A program made the position numbers and the translations under genes. A stretch of DNA of 49,917 nucleotides, taken from the IMG/VR virus record IMGVR_UViG_2718218131_000006. The stretch is one strand, 5' to 3'. Source of the DNA: a virus (Duplodnaviria; Heunggongvirae; Uroviricota; Caudoviricetes). Shown here one piece after another: positions 20,671-30,679 of this stretch (positions within the stretch are counted from its first letter, which is position 1; each line of letters opens with the position of its first letter). Below the pieces are notes generated by a model, which saw only the letters and a program-made list of their open reading frames with translations, ran no database searches and was not told where the DNA came from.

Positions 20671-22582
20671 TCACTCCTCCGGACAGCTTCGCTGCCAGTT
20701 CTTTCAGGGTTGGCCGGGTCGTCTCTTCTTCCCGGGATTTTGCCAGTACAGCCAGATCAAGCTGCCAGCGTTGCACGGACACACGTAATGCCGCGTAGGC
20801 ATACACCAGGCAGTCCAGCGCTTCGTTACGCCGCTTTTTGTTATCCCACAGCAGACGCATCTTTCCTTTTTCCCACTTCTCCACAAGCTCTTCCGCGACC
20901 AGTTGCTGCGCCTCTGTCTGCGAAAAAATCTCCGGATCATCAGGAAAACGGATGGCATACGACGTGGCTTCATCCGCAGGAGTGGGATCGGCTTTCATAC
21001 GGGCATAGAGAATTTCTTTTGCGGTGTCCGTCCCCACTTCACACAGATACACGCCCCGCTGATTGCGGGTTTTCGGCATGGTGATCACCGGCTTGCCATA
21101 GACAGATGCGCCTTTTACCGGCAGCACCCGGAAAACACCGTGTTTTTTTGACCTCTGATAGACAATTTCACCATCGATCCCCCCGGTGTCCCAGCAGACA
21201 CGGGAAATGGTCATTTCGGTTCCGTCTGCATGGCAGTATTTTTTGTTGATCGCCGCATCCACACGTAACAGCGTCTCTTCCTCATCGGGACGGCCCATAA
21301 TGATGATTTTATCCACCAGAAAGGCTTCCTCTCCCGGTGCCCATCCCCAGACATACATCTCAAAACGGTTTCGCTGCGAGTCAATGCCCGCCGTCAGATA
21401 AACCACCCGGGCAGGCACCGCCGCCGTGTAACGCACCACCTTATCCATCAGTACCTGGTGATCGAGTTTTTCGCCCACGGCCTCTTCCCAGGTCTCGCCC
21501 AGCGTGGTGTTCACAAAGGTTTTCAGGCCGTTGGGATCTTTCAGTGCATCCAGCCAGTCATAGACTATCTGTATCCAGGTGGTGAACGGACTGTACGCCG
21601 TCCAGATATGGAACGTGATGGAGCGCGGCGGCGGAATTTCATCCCCCCGGGCGCTGAAAAACGTCAGACCGTCACGGGTCCACATACCCGTGTTTTCACA
21701 GATCCAGCGCCCGTTACTCTGGTCAAGCTCAGACTGATGGATCACGCAGCCATGATGTTCACAGAGGTAGAAAACGCTTTCGGGGCTGTCCTTCTCCCAT
21801 TTAAGGCCAAAAGGCGTGGATTCATCGCCAAATTTCAGATACTGCGCCTCCCCACAGTGCGGGCAGGGCACATAGAAACGCATGAAATGCGCCGACTCGT
21901 TGGCCGCTTTTTCGATCTGGCAGGTACCTTTGATTTTAGGCGTCGAGCCGCGAATGGATTTTGGCCATACAGAGCCCTCAATACGCTTATCCCCCAGCAG
22001 GGTTGGCGAGCCCTCTTTTTCGACATCCGGCTCGAACGAGGAAAGCTCGTCATAGCAGACCACGTCCACGGATTTTTCACGGTAGTTTTTGGCGGCTGCA
22101 CCGCCCAGGCACCAGAAACCGACGCCCGATGAAAAGCGTTTCAGCGTGAGAGTATTGTCACGATGTTTACGACCCAGCCATGGGGAAAGGTCTTTCAGGC
22201 ATGGCACGTTCCGAATCGTCGCCTCCACGTGAGACTTCATAAAATCTTCAGCGGCAGAATCCGTGGGCTGAAAAAGCAGACTGTTTCGGGATTTATGCTC
22301 AATAAAATACCCGACCACCCCCAGCAACATCTTTGTATAGCCAACACGGGCAGATTTAATCAGGTTAACCGTGCGAACCTGGTCGTTACCCATACAGTTC
22401 ATAATGGCGATCTGGAATGGCAGCGTTTTCCATTCTCCCTCACCATATGAAGATTCTTTAGGCAGATAATAATTTTGATCAGCCCATTCAACTGCCGTCA
22501 TTGATACAACCCTGACCAGAGGCTGCAGCGCAACCGAAACGGCAGCCATCATATTATTCAGTTGTTGCTCTGATATATTCAT
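20654..22582 (-). CDS. A: Terminase large subunit A
   Basis: Start set at MNISEQQ by alignment to the lambda A N-terminus; conserved AVEWADQNYYLPKES; ATPase and nuclease regions. Confidence 0.9.
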   Translation of the reverse strand: MNISEQQLNNMMAAVSVALQPLVRVVSMTAVEWADQNYYLPKESSYGEGEWKTLPFQIAIMNCMGNDQVRTVNLIKSARVGYTKMLLGVVGYFIEHKSRNSLLFQPTDSAAEDFMKSHVEATIRNVPCLKDLSPWLGRKHRDNTLTLKRFSSGVGFWCLGGAAAKNYREKSVDVVCYDELSSFEPDVEKEGSPTLLGDKRIEGSVWPKSIRGSTPKIKGTCQIEKAANESAHFMRFYVPCPHCGEAQYLKFGDESTPFGLKWEKDSPESVFYLCEHHGCVIHQSELDQSNGRWICENTGMWTRDGLTFFSARGDEIPPPRSITFHIWTAYSPFTTWIQIVYDWLDALKDPNGLKTFVNTTLGETWEEAVGEKLDHQVLMDKVVRYTAAVPARVVYLTAGIDSQRNRFEMYVWGWAPGEEAFLVDKIIIMGRPDEEETLLRVDAAINKKYCHADGTEMTISRVCWDTGGIDGEIVYQRSKKHGVFRVLPVKGASVYGKPVITMPKTRNQRGVYLCEVGTDTAKEILYARMKADPTPADEATSYAIRFPDDPEIFSQTEAQQLVAEELVEKWEKGKMRLLWDNKKRRNEALDCLVYAYAALRVSVQRWQLDLAVLAKSREEETTRPTLKELAAKLSGGVNGYSR

Positions 22583-23246: not shown

Positions 23247-23258
23247 AGGTCGCCGCCC
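23247..23258 (-). other. cosN cohesive-end site (lambda-type 12-nt overhang GGGCGGCGACCT)
   Basis: Window reads ...ttttcataaatagcgaaaacccgcgaggtcgccgccc, the reverse complement of the lambda genome left end as I recall it. Confidence 0.85.
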
Positions 23259-23386
23259 CGTAACCTGTCGGATCGCCGGAAAGGACCCGCAAAATGATAA
23301 TAATTATCATCTACATGTCACAACGTGCATCTACGCCATCAAACTGAACCGCCCCGGGTTTCCTGGAGAGTGTTTTATCTGTGAAC

Positions 23387-23693
23387 TCAGGCTGCCAGAT
23401 CATCGTTTCCGATGGAAGCATAATAAGCTTTTTCTGCTTCTGCCGGTGGGATATGGCCCAGCCTTTCCAGCAATCGTCGATTGTTATACCAGTCCACCCA
23501 CGTGAGTGTGGCCAGCTCCACTTCTGTCCGGTTTTTCCAGCTCTTACGGTGTATTACCTCCGCTTTGTAAAGGCCATTGATGCTCTCCGCCATCGCGTTG
23601 TCATACGAGTCACCAGTACTTCCTGTTGATGCCAGTAATCCGGCTTCCTTAAGCCGCTGTGTGTAGGCCAGCGATACATACTGAGAACCTTTA
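23387..23693 (-). pseudogene. IS629 transposase orfB, C-terminal fragment (interrupted)
   Basis: GSQYVSLAYTQRLKEAGLLASTGSTGDSYDNAMAE...WYNNRRL is the IS3-family integrase core C-terminus. Confidence 0.8.
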
Positions 23694-23830
23694 TTGCAAA
23701 ATGGCATCTGAATCGATCGCAGTTTGGCATTCGAATCGATCATGATTTGGCATCCATCTCCGATCACAGTTTGGCATCACAATCGATCACGATTTGGCAT
23801 GCTTCCGATCATTGATTGGCATCCTGCCAG
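23694..23830. repeat. Multiple terminal direct repeats of the IS21-family element (left end)
   Basis: Five copies of roughly GATCANNGTTTGGCAT at about 23-bp spacing; related copies at the right end (26250-26342). Confidence 0.75.
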
Positions 23831-23896
23831 TCACTCCGGGAATTAACTCTTTTCACCACAGTCTCCATTGCCGTGTTTAAACCAGTGGAGACGTCA

Positions 23897-25462
23897 ATGT
23901 CCAGAAAGAGAAAATCCAGGAGCACTATGGAAACCTGTTTTAAGATTCTTCAGCTCAAGTTCGACAAGAAGCTGACTAACCGTTGTATCGGACTGACGTT
24001 ACACATCAGCGCCTCAACCGTTTTTGAGGTTCTTGCCCGCTTCAAAGCCTCTTCTCTGTCATGGCCATTACCTGCTGATATATCCCATGACACGCTGGAG
24101 AAACTCATTTTTCCGCCCAAAGACACCTTTGCATCAGAGCTTGTAATGCCTGACATGTTGTACCTCGATACGGAAATGAGAAAACCAGGTGTGACGCGGC
24201 AACTGTTGTGGATGGAATACAAGGCACAGGCGGGTAACAAAGCGATGGGATACTCGCACTTCTGCCGTTGCTACCGGGAGTGGAAAAAAACGCGACGTCT
24301 CTCCATGCGCCAGGAGCATCGTGCCGGCGAAAAGCTTTTTATCGACTTCTGTGGTCCTACGGTTCCTGTTATTAATCCGGACACCGGTGAGATACGCCGC
24401 GTGGCAATCTTCGTGGCCGTAATGGGGGCGTCCAACTATACCTACGTTGAAGCGTGCGAAGGTCAGGACATGATGTCATGGTTAAATGCCCACAGCCGTT
24501 GCCTGACCTTCCTGGGCGGCGTACCGAAGCTGCTCATCCCCGATAACCTCAGAAGCGCAGTGAAAAAGGCCGATCGATATGAGCCTGTCATCAACGACAG
24601 TTATCAGGCACTGGCTGAGCACTATGGCACGGTTATCATCCCGGCCCGACCACGCAAACCTAAAGATAAACCAAAAGCAGAAAACGGCGTCCTCATCGTC
24701 GAACGATGGCTTCTTGCCCGCATCCGTAATGAAACCTTCCACACGCTCAGGGCGCTGAATGCGCGCCTTAGGGAGTTACTGACAGACATGAATAACCGGC
24801 CAATGAAGGGGTACGGCAATCAAACCCGTGCAGAACGCTTCCGCATACTGGATGCGCCAGCACTCTCTCCGCTGCCTCTGGCACCTTATGAATACACGGA
24901 ATACAAAGCTGTGAAGGTTGGCCCTGACTACCACGTTGAATATGCCCGTCACTGGTACTCCGTTCCACACGAACTGGTCGGTCAGCGTCTGTCACTGAAG
25001 GCGGGGCAGTCGGTGGTACAGCTCTGGCACAAGGGGCAGTGTGTGGCGCAACATCCGCGCAGCACACATGAATATAAACACACAACCAATCCGCTTCACA
25101 TGCCAGAGCGCCACCGGCAGCACGGGACATGGACACCGGAACGCCTGATCGAGCAGGGAAAACGTACGGGCCCGTCCACAGGCCGGGTGGTTGAATCCAT
25201 GCTGAAGGCAAAACCCCATCCGGAACTGGCTTATCGTGCAGTTCTGGGGCTGCTGGCACTTCAGAAAAAATACGGCCCGGAACGGCTGGAAAAGGCCTGT
25301 TACGTTGCCCTGCACTATAACGCCCCTGACAGACGCTTTATCGACAATCTGCTGCGTCACCATCGGGAGAACCTGGAGCTTCCATTATCCCGCCAGGGCG
25401 AACAACATCCGGCATATGCTTCAGAGCATGAAAACCTGCGTGGTCCGGGCTACTACCACTGA
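23897..25462 (+). CDS. istA: IS21-family transposase IstA
   Basis: N-terminal helix-turn-helix followed by an integrase-like catalytic core; GGAG ribosome-binding site; followed by the IstB ATPase. Confidence 0.85.
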   Translation: MSRKRKSRSTMETCFKILQLKFDKKLTNRCIGLTLHISASTVFEVLARFKASSLSWPLPADISHDTLEKLIFPPKDTFASELVMPDMLYLDTEMRKPGVTRQLLWMEYKAQAGNKAMGYSHFCRCYREWKKTRRLSMRQEHRAGEKLFIDFCGPTVPVINPDTGEIRRVAIFVAVMGASNYTYVEACEGQDMMSWLNAHSRCLTFLGGVPKLLIPDNLRSAVKKADRYEPVINDSYQALAEHYGTVIIPARPRKPKDKPKAENGVLIVERWLLARIRNETFHTLRALNARLRELLTDMNNRPMKGYGNQTRAERFRILDAPALSPLPLAPYEYTEYKAVKVGPDYHVEYARHWYSVPHELVGQRLSLKAGQSVVQLWHKGQCVAQHPRSTHEYKHTTNPLHMPERHRQHGTWTPERLIEQGKRTGPSTGRVVESMLKAKPHPELAYRAVLGLLALQKKYGPERLEKACYVALHYNAPDRRFIDNLLRHHRENLELPLSRQGEQHPAYASEHENLRGPGYYH

Positions 25463-25478
25463 CAGAAGGAACAACAGT

Positions 25479-26234
25479 ATGAGTGATAACCTGTTAAACA
25501 AACTGACCCAACTGAAACTCCCGGCGATGGCCGGGAGCCTGATACGGCAGCGGGAAACGCCTCAGACCTACGACGAACTGTCGTTCGAGGAAAGGCTGAC
25601 GCTGCTGGTTGATGACGAGCTTCTGAGCAGGGAAAACAGCCGTGTGGCACGGTTGAGAAAAAATGCCGGCCTGAAATACCAGGCAACACCGGAAGGGCTG
25701 CGCTATCCGGCCTCAAGAGGTCTGCGGGCTGAACAGATGAGAGAACTGCTGAACGGCCACTACATAACCCACAGGAAAAACCTGCTGATAACCGGTCCGA
25801 CAGGATGTGGCAAGAGCTGGATAGCCAATGCGCTGGGCGAACAGGCATGTCGACAGAAACACAGCGTCCGGTACTGTAGAACCGGGCGATTACTGGAACA
25901 ACTGGCTCAGGGACGTGTTGATGGCAGCTGGCTGAAATATCTGAAACAGTTGCAAAAAATACAGGTTCTAATCCTGGACGATCTGGGGCTGGAACAGTTA
26001 AGTAACGCCCAGTGTAATGACCTTCTGGAGCTCATAGAGGATCGTTACGGACAAAGCAGCACGATAGTGGTAAGCCAGTTCCCGGTAGATAAATGGCATG
26101 GTCTGATGGAGAACCCAACAACAGCAGATGCCATCCTGGACAGACTGGTACATAACTCACACCGGGTGGTCCTTCAGGGAGAGTCACTGAGGAAAAATCC
26201 CCCGGTAGTGGAAAGCAGCGAAAAAACGCGTTAA
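25479..26234 (+). CDS. istB: IS21-family helper ATPase IstB
   Basis: Walker A motif ITGPTGCGKSW, Walker B LILDDLG; typical IstB length. Confidence 0.88.
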   Translation: MSDNLLNKLTQLKLPAMAGSLIRQRETPQTYDELSFEERLTLLVDDELLSRENSRVARLRKNAGLKYQATPEGLRYPASRGLRAEQMRELLNGHYITHRKNLLITGPTGCGKSWIANALGEQACRQKHSVRYCRTGRLLEQLAQGRVDGSWLKYLKQLQKIQVLILDDLGLEQLSNAQCNDLLELIEDRYGQSSTIVVSQFPVDKWHGLMENPTTADAILDRLVHNSHRVVLQGESLRKNPPVVESSEKTR

Positions 26235-26341
26235 AAAGCGGTAGAAAAAGTTAAGTTCCCGGTTGATCGAATGGATGCGAATCGCTGATCGGACTTCGAT
26301 GCCAATCCGTGATCGAATAGAGCGGAATACGCACCTTTATC

Positions 26342-26923
26342 ACTGTGATGGACTGTGCCGGACGGTCGACGGGCCCATAACGCCTGCTCCAGAGCATCCA
26401 GCACGAATGTCGTTTCCATAGACGATGAGACCCGCCACCCCACGATGTATCCGGCAAACACATCAATGATGAACGCCACATAGACGCCCCCCTGCCATGT
26501 GCTGACGTAAGTAAAATCAGCCACCCACAACTGGTCAGGACGTTCTGCCACAAACTGACGGTTTACGCGGTCGCCTGCGGCAACGGCTTTCCGGCTGACG
26601 GTAGTGCGGACCTTTTTACCCCGGAGAACACCGGCAAGTCCCATAACCGCCATGAGGCGCGCCACTGTACATCTGGCTACCCTGATTCCTTCCCGTAACA
26701 ACTGACGCCAGACTTTACGCACACCGTATACCTGATGATTCCCATCGTATACGCGCAGTATCTCTTTCTTCAGCCAGTCATCGCGCTGCGCACGGGCACT
26801 GCGTTTATCAGGATGATGTCGCTGTTGCTGACAGTGGTAATACGTTGACGGGGCAATATGTAGTTCACTGCATACCGGTCCGACCCCGTACAGCTTACGC
26901 AGCTTATCCAGCAGTGGCATCAC
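26342..26923 (-). pseudogene. IS629 transposase orfB, N-terminal fragment (interrupted)
   Basis: ...DQLWVADFTYVSTWQGGVYVAFIIDVFAGYIVGW...HHSDKG, then runs into IS21 end sequence. Confidence 0.8.
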
Positions 26924-27246
26924 TTTTTCCAGAGGCGGTCGAACTCCGCCTTTGCAAAATAAGCGGAAGCCTGGCGAAGGATATCGTTACTGCGGCGCAG
27001 TTCACGATTTTCACGTTCCAGCTCTTTCAGACGCTGACGTTCAGCGGTGGTGAGCCCGCCATCACCGCCTCCGGTATCCCGCTCATGCTGGCGTACCCAG
27101 ACACGCAGAGTCTCCGGTGTACAGCCAATCTTTGGGGCAATGGAACAAATTGCCGCCCACTGTGAGTCATATTCGCCCTGACTTTCCAGAACCATACGAA
27201 TCGCCCTCTGACGGACTTCGGGGGAAAAACGAGTATTTTTAGTCAT
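26920..27246 (-). CDS. IS629 OrfA (helix-turn-helix, leucine-zipper transposase subunit)
   Basis: [57 protein letters not shown] matches my memory of IS629 OrfA. Confidence 0.85.
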
Positions 27247-27416
27247 CCTGTTTACCTCTTTCTCAGGGAGTTTAGTCTCCAGGATTCCCGGGGCGGTTCA
27301 AACCACGTCAAATAATTAATTATGACGCAGGTATCGTATTAATTGATCTGCATCAACTTAACGTAAAAACAACTTCAGACAATACAAATCAGCGACACTG
27401 AATACGGGGCAACCTC

Positions 27417-27641
27417 ATGTCAACGAAGAACAGAACCCGCAGAAAAACAACCCGCAACATCCGCTTTCCTAACCAAATGATTGAACAAATTAACATCGCT
27501 CTTGATCAGAAAGGTTCAGGTAATTTTTCAGCGTGGGTTATTGAAGCCTGCAGAAGAAGATTAATTAATGAAAAACATGCTCAATTTGTACCCAACAAAG
27601 ACAAACACGACCAGAGCACCTGTTCAGACAGGTTTACTTAA
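27417..27641 (+). CDS. Small putative ribbon-helix-helix DNA-binding protein
   Basis: 74 aa with basic N-terminus; strand-helix-helix pattern IRFPNQMIEQINIALDQKGSGNFSAWVIEACRRRL; terminator follows. Confidence 0.45.
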   Translation: MSTKNRTRRKTTRNIRFPNQMIEQINIALDQKGSGNFSAWVIEACRRRLINEKHAQFVPNKDKHDQSTCSDRFT

Positions 27642-27659
27642 ACGACTTATATATGACAC

Positions 27660-27686
27660 AAAAAGCGACCACTAAAGTCGCTTTTT
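27660..27686. terminator. Bidirectional terminator between the convergent RHH-like gene and the pch-like gene
   Basis: GCGAC-cactaaa-GTCGC hairpin flanked by an A-run and a T-run. Confidence 0.65.
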
Positions 27687-27722
27687 CTTATGGTAACAGG
27701 CAATAACGCTCTCAGATATTTT

Positions 27723-28037
27723 TTAGCATTTTTTTGACCGCGCGTTTCCGGACGTATTCTGTTCTCCTGTCCCTTTATATCGTCGGAATACCCGCCGCTC
27801 TTCAAATCCCATTCCCAACTCAGAATGTAGTCTGTTGACCGCTTGTTTTATTTCGGTCAGGTTCACCGGTGAAACCGGAGTCCGGCGCGCCTTACGCAAA
27901 CACTCTGCTCGTTTCTGTGCCGCCACTTTTCTTTTCTGGTCATCACTTAGCTGTACCATCACTTTTGCCCATCGTTCAGCTGCTCTCCGGTACAGTCCTT
28001 TTTTCTCCAGACATTCTGCCACGTGATCATGTAGCAT
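27723..28037 (-). CDS. pch: PerC-family transcriptional regulator (Pch-like, the prophage-encoded activator of LEE in EHEC)
   Basis: 104 aa starting MLHDHVAECLEKKGLYRRAAERWAKVMVQ; GLYRRAAERW is the PerC signature as I recall it; long AT-rich upstream region. Confidence 0.6.
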   Translation of the reverse strand: MLHDHVAECLEKKGLYRRAAERWAKVMVQLSDDQKRKVAAQKRAECLRKARRTPVSPVNLTEIKQAVNRLHSELGMGFEERRVFRRYKGTGEQNTSGNARSKKC

Positions 28038-28502
28038 AAGTGACCTCCGATTATCTACAGACTGCCATCCTGAATTTACCTTCCCTTAATGAAATAACAA
28101 TAAAAAACAAACCACGCAAAAACAATAAAATAACACACAAAAAAAACTAAATAATAAACAAAAATAATCACCTTATTTTATTATTTTTTGAGGGGGCAAT
28201 TACTGAACAAAAAACGCTGACTATATACTCAAAACCAAACAACTATTCTGCCAATCAGGTATCATGGCAACACACGGAATTACCGTGTTTTTGCCTTCTC
28301 TGCCCATACAATACGGGCATATACTTCATACTCTATTGTAATATTTCTATCCATGCGCCCCACTCCATTTACCTGTAAATAATATTCAAAATATTTATCA
28401 CAGAAATCGTTTTTGTCCATGAACTGAGCACACTATAAAGTCCGGAACTGACTCTTTGTTAAATTACCTTAACGTTACCAGTAACACCTTCATAACAAAA
28501 CA

Positions 28503-28970
28503 TCACGGTATACACTGGGTACGGATATATTCCTGTGCTCCTTCCAGTTGCTTCTGCATTGCCATCAGCCGTTCTCTGAGGATGAAATAATCCCGTTCAG
28601 CGGCTTCTGCCAGTCGGGGACCGGTTGCATTATCCACGCCGGAGGTGATGGGGGCTTTACGCAAGGAGCCTGGACAGTTGGCGTTGATGCGCAGGCGCTT
28701 ACGACCAGCGGCAACATCAGCACGCAGAGTTTCATTTTCAGCTCTCGCATCGGCTAATTCCCTCGAGTATCTGGCATCAAGTGCAGCGACATCACGCTGG
28801 CGTACCTGCATATCAGTAATTGTCACGTTCGCCAGCTTCAGCTCACTGGCTTTTTTATCGCGTTGCGCTTTGTAGGTAATGGCGTTATCGCGGTAATGAT
28901 TCAGCCCCAGACTAAGCACACCACAGGCTACCAGCAGGACAATAATCACCACACACAGAACACGGTTCAT
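28503..28970 (-). CDS. Rz: Rz inner-membrane spanin
   Basis: N-terminal transmembrane helix then coiled coil; follows the endolysin; contains the embedded Rz1 frame. Confidence 0.85.
28565..28750 (-). CDS. Rz1: Rz1 outer-membrane lipoprotein spanin, embedded in Rz in the +1 frame
   Basis: 61-aa ORF wholly inside Rz; lipobox LVVSAC then proline-rich sequence. Confidence 0.8.
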
Positions 28971-29459: not shown

Positions 29460-29993
29460 TTATCTGTCAATTCCCCAGCACGCCAGTGCACTTTCCTGGT
29501 CTCGCCGGGATACCTGACCGTAGCAATTATTTGAGCGGATACGGCAGTCTCTGCCACCGTCCTTAATCCACCAGCGAATCGCTTCGCAGGCACCTTTTCG
29601 ATCACCTGCATTAATCCGTCTGTAAAACGTAGACGGGAAACACTTACCGGGGCCAATGTTATAAGGACAAAATGACGCGATACCCGCCTTCTGGGGTTCG
29701 GTCAGCGGTACTTTAATATTGCGCTCCACCCACTCCAGCGCCTTATCACGTTCAATGGCGTTAACCTGGTCGCACTTTTCCTTCGATAACTTCATACCCG
29801 GGACGACAGGCTTACCATCCACTCGGGTGGCACCGCGGCAGATGGTCCAGATCCCCGCACCATCACGGTATGCCGTGGTGTGGTTACCTTCTTTTTCGTC
29901 AAGAAACTGGTCGAGGATTTCAGGCGCAGACGTCCCTGCACCAATCAGCGCCAGAACGGCAGCCGACAGGCCGTATCTGATTTTTGCGTTCAT
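29460..29993 (-). CDS. R: Signal-arrest-release (SAR) endolysin, T4-lysozyme-like
   Basis: N-terminal weakly hydrophobic SAR segment LSAAVLALIGAGTSAPE; lysozyme-like core in the family of phage 21 R. Confidence 0.85.
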   Translation of the reverse strand: MNAKIRYGLSAAVLALIGAGTSAPEILDQFLDEKEGNHTTAYRDGAGIWTICRGATRVDGKPVVPGMKLSKEKCDQVNAIERDKALEWVERNIKVPLTEPQKAGIASFCPYNIGPGKCFPSTFYRRINAGDRKGACEAIRWWIKDGGRDCRIRSNNCYGQVSRRDQESALACWGIDR

Positions 29994-30364
29994 GGATATT
30001 TATCAGGATTTATCGGTTTCTGAACCCTGGATATGTTAAGCATTCAGCCCGTCAGTGGTAGGACACTGGCGCTCTGGTTAAGGATTATGGGGGATGCAGG
30101 CTGGGCTACCCCATCTGAGGATTTGATATGCAAAAAGAAGTTTTTATCAATATTACAGCTGACTGCTCATCTCCTGCATCAACAGCAAAAGAAATTGAAG
30201 CTCTTAAATATATGATTACAGTAATATTTACCGTATTGGACCAGAATGAAAAAAAATGGAATCATTCATCAATTAAATGAACATGTAAATAATCCATATA
30301 TCAAAAGCAATCTGGAAATGTTGCTACCAATGAAAGATATTGGAAAACCAACTGAAACAAAAGG

Positions 30365-30679
30365 CTAACAACCCGTAATCGAGTTATCTGAACTGTTAAT
30401 TTTTATGGTATACCGCGCCTCTGAACAGGGGCGCGTTTCTGGCAACAGCTCGTCCCCTTCACATAACCCGGCAGCAACATCCAGGAAGACCTGTCTGATG
30501 CTCCTTCTGGCTGCTGCCTCATAAAACTCCAGCGCGGCACCTTCAACACGGTCCAGCGAGATGTCCAGGTCAAAAATTTCACCGTCAAAGCATTTTTTGT
30601 CCCGTAACGCTAAAGTTACCGTAACTTTATTCTCAAAATTGCGGATCCCTTTCACAATCACTTCATAGTTTTGAGTCAT
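30365..30679 (-). CDS. Hypothetical protein between holin and endolysin
   Basis: 104-aa ORF with GGGGAGAG ribosome-binding site, starting 5 nt after the holin stop. Confidence 0.55.
   Translation of the reverse strand: MTQNYEVIVKGIRNFENKVTVTLALRDKKCFDGEIFDLDISLDRVEGAALEFYEAAARRSIRQVFLDVAAGLCEGDELLPETRPCSEARYTIKINSSDNSITGC

What the first reader, a model, noticed from the sequence alone, without database searches (positions are those of the whole stretch)
27417..28500. Regulatory moron between Rz and cos: PerC-homologue plus convergent RHH-like gene, with 460 bp of AT-rich upstream DNA
This is the position where lambda carries bor. The PerC-like protein is the kind of prophage-borne regulator that activates LEE in EHEC. 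The convergent 74-aa RHH-like protein shares a bidirectional terminator with it and is unassigned. The 28040-28500 stretch is extremely AT- and A-run rich, as expected for H-NS-silenced regulatory DNA.
Basis: partly seen in the sequence, partly recalled or inferred. Interest (0 to 1): 0.55.

Follow-up and report, generated by a model that had tools for sequence, protein, structure and literature searches.

The report
pchA virulence-regulator moron in a lambdoid prophage
This is the well-known prophage gene pchA, a PerC-type activator of the LEE virulence island in EHEC/EPEC, with its AT-rich control region; the small gene facing it is an ordinary, uncharacterised phage-lambda backbone gene (YlcI/YnfO), so little here is new.

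Summary
The sequence features are real and at the stated coordinates. The 104-aa protein (27723-28037, minus strand) is 100% identical to PchA (ECs_1091) of E. coli O157:H7 Sakai. Its 465-bp upstream region is about 99% identical to the Sakai pchA upstream region. That region is the lowest-GC stretch of the window (33% against 52%).

Gene and upstream region occur together in 672 of 5426 complete E. coli genomes, about three copies each. The module lies downstream of Rz, in the same orientation as the late operon, and replaces lambda's bor-p78-p79 segment.

The 74-aa convergent gene is not moron cargo and not unassigned. It is a YlcI/YnfO (DUF3950) gene that lambda itself (unannotated), DLP12 and Qin carry about 200 bp from cosN. 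It is found in 4172 of 5426 genomes. Only its last ~25 codons belong to the pch module.

An RHH fold is compatible with its predicted secondary structure, but no fold or profile search confirmed it. H-NS silencing of the AT-rich region is plausible but was not tested here.

An IS629 element, itself split by ISSso4, sits between this gene and cos.

Verdict: already known, low interest. The only open item is the function of DUF3950.

The parts
27723..28037 (-). pchA: 104-aa PerC-family (PchABC group) transcriptional activator, same orientation as the phage late/lysis genes
   Evidence: ORF. Pfam PerC 149 bits, E 3.8e-44. 100% identical to Sakai PchA ECs_1091 and 98% to another O157:H7 pch copy. 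UniRef name 'PchABC family transcriptional regulator'. RefSeq WP_001303878.1 'PerC family transcriptional regulator'.
28038..28502 (-). AT-rich pchA upstream region (promoter(s) and leader). Shine-Dalgarno GGAGG at 28044-28048, 6 nt before the ATG. The T-rich tract 28090-28200 (as read on the pchA strand) is the most variable part.
   Evidence: 33.3% GC, the lowest of the window. About 99% identical to the Sakai pchA upstream region. Present in the same 672 genomes as pch, 1878 against 1875 places. No annotated feature in RefSeq. The distal ~300 bp is about 96% conserved in the most divergent allele (strain A25), while the T-rich proximal part has indels and many substitutions. No Rfam match.
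27660..27686 (.). Symmetric hairpin between the two stop codons: candidate bidirectional intrinsic terminator
   Evidence: AAAAAGCGAC-CACTAAA-GTCGCTTTTT read. Folds on both strands, z -2.15 and -2.03. Identical in Sakai and ECP19-598. Not called by the pattern scanner.
27417..27641 (+). ylcI/ynfO-like gene (DUF3950), 74 aa. Codons 1-49 are lambda backbone; the C-terminal ~25 codons (27565-27641) belong to the pch module.
   Evidence: Pfam DUF3950 7.6e-20 and NCBIfam YlcI_YnfO_N. Homology to lambda, DLP12 and Qin runs over 27300-27564 and then stops. Over the first 49 codons, 12 variable codons are synonymous-only and 2 change the amino acid (window, lambda, DLP12, Qin), so it is a selected coding gene. 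AlphaFold2 model: extended basic N-terminus, helices 19-31 and 39-55, mean pLDDT 63.
27301..27416 (+). Conserved 116-bp region upstream of ylcI (lambda right-end DNA between cosQ and the ORF); presumed to hold the ylcI promoter and ribosome-binding site
   Evidence: One mismatch in 116 bp against lambda, DLP12 and Qin. No consensus promoter found by the scanner.
23345..27300 (-). IS629/IS1203 (IS3 family) inserted between cos and ylcI, itself split by an IS21-family ISSso4 (about 23695-26332). 3-bp target duplication AAC at 23342-23344 and 27301-27303.
   Evidence: IS ends TGAACCGCCCCGGG read. ALIL frameshift pseudoknot, Rfam 116 bits. RefSeq annotation of identical DNA. Nested-insertion coordinates.
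23247..23258 (-). cosN (lambda cohesive-end sequence), 86 bp from the IS insertion point
   Evidence: The one exact match to GGGCGGCGACCT in the window. Flanking sequence aligns with the lambda, DLP12 and Qin cos regions.
28503..28970 (-). Rz spanin gene (with Rz1 embedded at 28565-28750): upstream boundary of the pch module
   Evidence: Pfam Phage_lysis 2e-46. 83% DNA identity to lambda Rz over 28525-28907.
28280..28420 (-). 46-aa ORF inside the pchA upstream region; probably not a selected protein-coding gene
   Evidence: Open in all 5 alleles and matches phrog_2157 (E 1.2e-36). But 8 of 10 variable codons change the amino acid. No Pfam or NCBIfam hit. Not annotated in most RefSeq genomes. 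Found in phage records only with pch.

Best explanation
The interval from about 27565 to 28524 is a single-gene moron, pchA with its own AT-rich control region and a downstream hairpin. It is inserted in a lambda-like prophage between Rz and the cos-proximal backbone gene ylcI/ynfO, in place of lambda's bor-p78-p79.

Shown by identity to the characterised Sakai protein: PchA is the PerC-type activator that binds AT-rich DNA at the LEE1 (ler) promoter and displaces the H-NS/StpA/Hha silencing complex. This turns on Ler, the LEE type III secretion system and prophage-encoded effectors.

Taken from the literature for the near-identical Sakai locus: pchA transcription responds to LrhA, NtrC/sigma-S, and Lrp/butyrate with LeuO. 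Translation is held off by an anti-Shine-Dalgarno element inside the coding sequence, and the sRNA DicF relieves this under low oxygen.

Inferred from the anatomy:
- pchA points the same way as S-R-Rz, so it should also be transcribed by Q-antiterminated late read-through on prophage induction. This fits the reported strong SOS induction of pch genes.
- The 33%-GC upstream block is the kind of DNA that H-NS binds, so the gene is probably silenced until its activators act.

The convergent 74-aa gene is a conserved lambdoid backbone gene (DUF3950), transcribed away from cos and antisense to late transcription. It probably encodes a small dimeric DNA-binding protein with a basic N-terminal arm and two helices. 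Its function is unknown. The hairpin most likely keeps the two convergent transcripts apart.
For: - Identity to PchA and to its upstream region. PerC family. Cluster name.
- Module boundaries from homology to lambda, DLP12 and Qin.
- Lambda map of bor, p78, p79 and the unannotated 64-aa ylcI-like ORF.
- Co-inheritance of pch with its upstream region (672 genomes; 1875 and 1878 places).
- ylcI is far more widespread (4172 genomes, 9759 places). ylcI/ynfO lies next to nohD/nohA in K-12.
- Purifying selection on ylcI.
- Composition. Hairpin. Late-operon orientation.
- Literature: Pch counteracts H-NS at LEE1 (PMC4764244). pchABC, LrhA, Lrp/butyrate and LeuO (PMC4456613). NtrC/sigma-S (PMC10714755; PMC13012123). 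DicF and the anti-SD element (PMC7769764, PMC7873438). pch genes among the regulators most affected by SOS-inducing antibiotic (PMC6265319).
Against: - No experiment bears on this particular strain. Whether its genome carries LEE was not checked, and the window shows neither LEE nor dicF.
- The promoter and transcription start were not located.
- H-NS binding to this region is inferred from composition only. The published high-affinity H-NS motif has only one poor match here.
- The hairpin is short and was not called by the terminator scanner.
- My local fold of the leader did not give a significantly stable SD-sequestering structure (z -1.14).
- The IS nest next to cos may have crippled the prophage, so induction-coupled expression is uncertain.
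Confidence: 0.88

Rival explanations
1. One reading: pchA and the 74-aa gene form one two-gene regulatory unit. In this view the small RHH-like protein controls pch (or LEE), either as a DNA-binding repressor or through convergent transcriptional interference.
For: - The pair stays convergent and adjacent even in strain A25, where the packaging module is of a different (HNH plus terminase) type.
- The last ~25 codons of the 74-aa ORF are part of the pch module.
- The equivalent convergent pair ybcW-ylcI in K-12 DLP12 is listed as an 'excludon' with overlapping transcripts (PMC12288877).
Against: - The same gene with the same upstream DNA sits beside cos in lambda, DLP12 and Qin, which lack pch.
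- It occurs in about five times more places than pch.
- Its neighbour is unrelated in each phage: YbcW has no similarity to PchA.
- A hairpin separates the two genes.
- No literature links ylcI or ynfO to pch or LEE.
Confidence: 0.08
2. The AT-rich 'upstream DNA' is not purely regulatory. It carries a second small protein gene (46 aa, 28280-28420, minus strand) expressed with or ahead of pchA.
For: - The ORF is open in all five alleles examined.
- It matches a PHROG family over its full length (phrog_2157, E 1.2e-36).
- Some RefSeq genomes annotate a hypothetical protein in this interval.
- The DNA around it is better conserved than the T-rich tract nearer pchA.
Against: - 8 of 10 variable codons change the amino acid, against 8 of 18 for pchA and 2 of 14 for ylcI.
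- No GGAG-type ribosome-binding site precedes its ATG (sequence).
- No Pfam or NCBIfam family.
- Most PGAP annotations leave it out.
- It is never found apart from pch in phage records.
Confidence: 0.12
3. The 74-aa DUF3950 protein works in DNA packaging or packaging interference at cos, as a small DNA-binding partner or competitor of the small terminase, rather than as a transcription factor.
For: - It lies at the boundary of the packaging module in every locus examined here: next to lambda-type nu1/noh and next to HNH/terminase modules.
- In two distant homologues, DUF3950 is fused to the N-terminal HTH DNA-binding domain of a Terminase_2-type small terminase, in PICI-like satellites.
- cf-PICIs are reported to carry YlcI/YnfO genes (PMC13612085).
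Against: - It is transcribed against the late operon, so it is not co-expressed with the terminase in the usual way.
- There is no experimental evidence, and fusion and synteny are indirect arguments.
- Lambda packaging has been reconstituted and dissected genetically without such a factor (my own knowledge, not checked here).
Confidence: 0.1

Closest known systems
PchA (ECs_1091, prophage Sp4) and PchB/PchC of E. coli O157:H7 Sakai
   Same: - Protein 100% identical to PchA and 98% to a second O157:H7 copy.
- Upstream 465 bp about 99% identical; terminator hairpin identical.
- Same position directly after Rz.
   Different: - In Sakai Sp4, IS629 cuts the ylcI-like gene at the module junction (equivalent to window 27560) and the lysis-pchA block is rearranged.
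- Here ylcI is intact and the IS629/ISSso4 nest lies 117 bp upstream of it.
PerC of the EPEC pEAF plasmid (perABC operon), founding member of Pfam PF06069
   Same: Same family: the match covers the full-length PerC domain, profile positions 1-89 of 90. Same reported target, the LEE1/ler promoter (PMC4456613).
   Different: PerC is plasmid-borne inside the perABC operon. Here the gene stands alone in a prophage late region with its own AT-rich upstream DNA. Direct alignment to EPEC PerC was not done; membership rests on the Pfam model.
Lambda bor and lom (classical lysogenic-conversion morons)
   Same: Cargo inserted in the late region of a lambdoid phage. The pch module replaces the lambda interval that begins with bor.
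   Different: bor is transcribed against the late operon and encodes an outer-membrane lipoprotein. pchA has the same orientation as the late operon and encodes a regulator. There is no sequence similarity.
YlcI (DLP12), YnfO (Qin) and the unannotated 64-aa ORF of phage lambda (48109-48303, complement)
   Same: - Same DUF3950 family.
- First ~49 residues nearly identical.
- Same 116-bp upstream DNA, same distance from cosN and same orientation, divergent from nu1/noh.
   Different: The C-terminal tail (residues ~50-74) differs in each phage, because the recombination junction with the neighbouring cargo lies inside the 3' end of the ORF.
Arc/Mnt/CopG ribbon-helix-helix repressors
   Same: - Size, a basic N-terminal arm, the motif N-[IL]-R-[FW]-P followed by two helices with a G-x-x-[NS] turn.
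- hhalign places Arc, Mnt and CopG in the same register.
- Weak PHROG hit to a HicB-like family (E 0.009).
   Different: - Dimer formation and DNA binding are untested.

Membership tests
PerC / PchABC transcriptional activators (Pfam PF06069) | Full-length match to the PerC domain above the curated threshold | tested here: met
   149.3 bits against a cut-off of 22.6; E 3.8e-44; residues 1-89 on profile positions 1-89 of 90.
PerC / PchABC transcriptional activators (Pfam PF06069) | Group 1 Pch (PchA/B/C): about 104 aa, near-identical to the Sakai proteins that are required for ler/LEE expression | tested here: met
   104 aa; 100% identical to Sakai ECs_1091 'transcriptional regulator PchA' and 98% to another O157:H7 copy. 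Grouping of pch genes from PMC6265319.
PerC / PchABC transcriptional activators (Pfam PF06069) | Activates the LEE1 promoter by relieving H-NS silencing | not testable with these tools
   Shown for the identical Sakai protein (PMC4764244). Whether this host carries LEE was not determined.
Moron (self-contained cargo gene in a phage genome) | Present in some but absent from otherwise homologous phage genomes, with sharp homology boundaries | tested here: met
   Homology to lambda and DLP12 covers 27300-27564 and 28525-28907 only. The ~960 bp between them is pch-specific.
Moron (self-contained cargo gene in a phage genome) | Different base composition from the flanking phage genes | tested here: met
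   Upstream block 33% GC against a 52% window mean; lowest of the window.
Moron (self-contained cargo gene in a phage genome) | Own promoter and own terminator | tested here: inconclusive
   Hairpin with flanking A and T runs downstream. Promoter scan gave only weak sites at chance frequency. Independent regulation by LrhA and others is reported for the near-identical Sakai locus, but the promoter was not mapped here.
YlcI/YnfO family (Pfam DUF3950, NCBIfam NF041551) | Match to the DUF3950 / YlcI_YnfO_N models above the curated threshold | tested here: met
   Pfam 70.9 bits (cut-off 25); NCBIfam 34.8 bits (cut-off 30). phrog_949, E 2e-31.
YlcI/YnfO family (Pfam DUF3950, NCBIfam NF041551) | Cos-proximal position, divergent from the small terminase gene of a lambdoid prophage | tested here: met
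   Same arrangement and same upstream DNA as lambda, DLP12 (ylcI-nohD) and Qin (ynfO-nohA). Here it is interrupted only by the IS nest.
Ribbon-helix-helix (Arc/MetJ/CopG) DNA-binding proteins | Strand-helix-helix fold recognisable by structure or profile comparison | tested here: inconclusive
   [not shown]
Ribbon-helix-helix (Arc/MetJ/CopG) DNA-binding proteins | Homodimer with an antiparallel two-stranded sheet that inserts into the DNA major groove | not testable with these tools
   Only monomer prediction was available. Needs a dimer prediction or an experiment.
H-NS-silenced horizontally acquired DNA | AT-rich, A-tract-rich DNA | tested here: met
   33% GC and 13 A or T runs of 4 or more bases.
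H-NS-silenced horizontally acquired DNA | H-NS occupancy and de-repression in an hns mutant | not testable with these tools
   No ChIP table for this locus was accessible. Only one 2-mismatch match to the high-affinity H-NS motif lies in the region.

The most novel reading that the evidence does not exclude
The DUF3950 gene (YlcI/YnfO, also an unannotated ORF of lambda itself) may encode a ribbon-helix-helix-type DNA-binding protein made from the prophage, antisense to late transcription. It could act at or near cos: as a packaging or superinfection-interference factor that partners or competes with the small terminase, or as a brake on the convergent cargo gene (here pchA). The DUF3950 plus terminase-HTH fusions in PICI-like satellites would then be a satellite version of the same activity.
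Probability: 0.1. Interest if true: 0.5.

Novelty: already known. Interest (0 to 1): 0.12.

Why it matters
pchA is one of the master switches for attaching-and-effacing virulence, so finding an intact copy flags this prophage as contributing to virulence regulation in its host. That is useful for annotation but is not a discovery. The gene, its position after Rz, its regulators and its mechanism are all published, and the same module is in 12% of complete E. coli genomes. The one loose end with some general interest is that a gene present in phage lambda itself and in 77% of complete E. coli genomes (DUF3950) still has no known function.

Tried and rejected
- Rfam scans of the region and of the whole window found only the IS3 ALIL frameshift pseudoknot. 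There was no sRNA or riboswitch in the AT-rich block, and no DicF or tRNA in the window.
- YbcW/lambda p79, which occupies the pchA position in DLP12 and lambda, is not a hidden PerC relative: no BLASTP alignment and no PerC Pfam hit.
- A search for the H-NS high-affinity motif was uninformative.
- A sigma-54-like TGGCAG-N5-TTGT and the palindrome TGCCA-N11-TGGCA at about 28245-28270 were considered by eye as NtrC/LrhA-related sites. They were dropped because the TTGT element is not conserved in strain A25 and nothing supports them.
- Folding the pchA leader plus 190 nt of coding sequence did not give a significantly stable structure, so the published anti-SD mechanism is cited, not re-derived.
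- The primary papers on the pchA promoter and DicF (Honda 2009, Yang 2009, Melson 2019) and Abe 2008 could not be read.
- Mentions of ylcI in evolution experiments are single SNP calls with no functional content.
- Rpp proteins of E. coli PICIs are wHTH terminase mimics, not DUF3950 proteins.

Full report
**Observation.** They converge.

The 81 bp between their stop codons holds a symmetric hairpin at 27660-27686: AAAAAGCGAC, a 7-nt loop, then GTCGCTTTTT. It folds on either strand better than about 96% of shuffles (z -2.15 and -2.03). The simple terminator scanner missed it. My guess, not checked, is that the A and T runs count as part of the stem.

The stretch 28038-28502 has 33.3% GC against 51.8% for the window. 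It is the lowest-GC 465-bp stretch in all 49.9 kb and carries 13 A or T runs of four or more bases.

Rz lies immediately upstream at 28503-28970 (Pfam Phage_lysis, 2e-46). The window's one exact lambda cosN sequence lies at 23247-23258, next to the small terminase gene.

**What the 104-aa gene is.** It hits the Pfam PerC model over its full length (149 bits, E 3.8e-44). I fetched prophage Sp4 of E. coli O157:H7 Sakai, where ECs_1091 is annotated 'transcriptional regulator PchA'. The window protein is 100% identical to it and 98% identical to another O157:H7 pch copy. The 465 bp upstream and the downstream hairpin are about 99-100% identical to the Sakai pchA locus. The exact sequence is in a cluster that UniRef names 'PchABC family transcriptional regulator'.

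Across 5426 complete E. coli genomes:
- the gene is in 672 genomes, at 1875 places (median 3 per genome);
- the upstream block is in the same 672 genomes, at 1878 places.

So gene and AT-rich block travel together.

**What the 74-aa gene is.** It is not unassigned. It matches Pfam DUF3950 (E 7.6e-20) and the NCBIfam YlcI/YnfO model. K-12 carries two copies, each about 390 bp from the small terminase gene and divergent from it: ylcI beside nohD in DLP12, and ynfO beside nohA in Qin.

A tblastn against phage records showed the same gene in lambda, 434 and many Stx phages. In the lambda RefSeq record it is an unannotated 64-aa ORF at 48109-48303 on the complementary strand, about 200 bp from the right cohesive end.

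The window, lambda, DLP12 and Qin are nearly identical from the IS junction at 27301 through codon ~49 of the ORF. They then diverge completely. Within those 49 codons, 12 variable codons are synonymous-only and 2 change the amino acid, so it is a real, selected protein gene.

The conserved part (27301-27564) is found in 4172 of 5426 genomes at 9759 places, about five times more than pch. It also sits at the same boundary in phages with a different packaging module, HNH plus terminase. It is therefore lambdoid backbone, not moron cargo. Only its last ~25 codons come with the pch module.

**Boundaries and architecture.** Homology to lambda covers 27300-27564 and 28525-28907. The pch-specific insert of about 960 bp therefore replaces lambda's 1.7-kb bor-p78-p79 interval. 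'The position where lambda carries bor' is roughly right. One difference matters: bor points against the late operon, whereas pchA points the same way as holin, lysozyme, Rz and the terminase genes.

YbcW/lambda p79, which occupies the equivalent slot convergent with ylcI in DLP12 and lambda, is unrelated to PchA.

Between ylcI and cos lies an IS629/IS1203 copy (23345-27300) with a 3-bp target duplication AAC. It is itself split by an IS21-family ISSso4. The insertion point is 86 bp from cosN, so cos itself appears intact.

**How it most likely works.** For PchA the mechanism is published for the identical protein. It binds very AT-rich sites, reduces H-NS/StpA/Hha occupancy at the LEE1 promoter, and thereby activates ler, the LEE and non-LEE effectors (PMC4764244; PMC4456613).

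Reported inputs to pchA are:
- LrhA;
- Lrp/butyrate with LeuO;
- NtrC acting through sigma-S (PMC10714755; PMC13012123);
- at the translational level, an anti-Shine-Dalgarno element in the coding sequence that DicF sRNA neutralises under low oxygen (PMC7769764, PMC7873438).

The coding sequence and the proximal leader are identical to Sakai's, so these cis elements are present here. I did not re-derive them, and my own fold of the leader was not significantly stable.

Two steps are my inference:
1. The late-operon orientation should couple pchA to prophage induction. This fits the report that pch genes are among the regulators most affected by an SOS-inducing antibiotic (PMC6265319).
2. The 33%-GC block is probably H-NS-bound. 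No ChIP data for this locus were accessible, and the high-affinity H-NS motif is essentially absent.

Within the block, the distal 300 bp is about 96% conserved in the most divergent allele (strain A25). The T-rich tract next to the gene has indels and many substitutions.

**The RHH question.** The family is small: 110 representatives at 50% clustering. An AlphaFold2 model built on a 44-sequence alignment has modest confidence (pLDDT 63). It shows an extended basic N-terminus followed by helices 19-31 and 39-55, the layout expected of one RHH protomer.

**Side observations on DUF3950.** Two distant homologues (P0243, 120 aa; P0216, 129 aa) fuse DUF3950 to the N-terminal HTH DNA-binding domain of a Terminase_2-type small terminase. 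They lie next to the integrase of PICI-like satellites. This, together with the cos-proximal synteny, hints at a role in DNA recognition near the packaging site. The hint is indirect. The known PICI packaging-redirection proteins (Rpp) have a different fold. No paper gives YlcI or YnfO a function. The ybcW-ylcI pair of K-12 is listed as a convergent 'excludon'.

**The 46-aa ORF.** The ORF at 28280-28420 (minus strand) stays open in five alleles and matches phrog_2157. However, 8 of its 10 variable codons change the amino acid, and it is seldom annotated. I regard it as probably non-coding conserved regulatory DNA.

**Comparison and verdict.** This is pchA, an already known gene in its known genomic setting, beside an already catalogued but functionally unknown lambda backbone gene.

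- Not supported: bundling the 74-aa gene into the moron and calling it unassigned.
- Untested: the RHH fold and H-NS silencing.

Novelty is 'already known' and interest is low. The only reading with some novelty is a cos-linked or cargo-linked function for DUF3950, to which I give about 10%.

Noticed in passing
L009:6001-6363 (also L010-L012) and L013:4714-5103: DUF3950 is fused to the N-terminal HTH DNA-binding domain of a Terminase_2-type small terminase (similar to the SF6 terminase DNA-binding domain, PDB 2cmp, E 1.6e-4). These are 120-129-aa proteins encoded next to the integrase of PICI-like satellites. In L009 the satellite lies beside a truncated terS of a lambdoid prophage. They may be terminase mimics that redirect packaging, by analogy with Rpp.
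   Followed up: partly
L006:3110-3304 (-), i.e. lambda 48109-48303 complement: The phage lambda RefSeq record (NC_001416) does not annotate its own 64-aa YlcI/YnfO (DUF3950) ORF, which lies about 200 bp from the right cohesive end. The ORF is under purifying selection across lambda, DLP12, Qin and this window.
   Followed up: yes
window 23345-27300: Nested insertion sequences lie 86 bp from cosN, inside the late transcription unit. IS629/IS1203 has a 3-bp duplication AAC and is split by an IS21-family ISSso4 at about 23695-26332. This probably impairs expression of the head and tail genes from the late promoter, so the prophage may be defective.
   Followed up: partly
window 28280-28420 (-): A 46-aa ORF inside the pchA upstream region matches phrog_2157 over its full length, but mostly amino-acid-changing substitutions separate its alleles. 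A small hairpin (28272-28288) overlaps its stop codon and looks like a terminator only for plus-strand (antisense) transcripts.
   Followed up: partly
L003:17131-18203 and 21697-21849 (Sakai Sp4): In Sakai Sp4, IS629 abuts the pch module exactly at the junction inside the ylcI-like ORF (equivalent to window 27560). The 5' part of ylcI lies 3.5 kb away in inverted orientation. The same junction is therefore a rearrangement point in O157:H7.
   Followed up: no
L007:1473-2104 (E. coli A25): The ylcI-pch-Rz block (92% identical to the window) is joined to an HNH endonuclease plus terminase packaging module instead of lambda nu1. Homology starts exactly at the ylcI start codon.
   Followed up: partly
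[not shown]
   Followed up: partly
window 30100-30400: A second low-GC patch (30-32% GC) lies just beyond the lysozyme gene (29460-29993). It was not examined.
   Followed up: no
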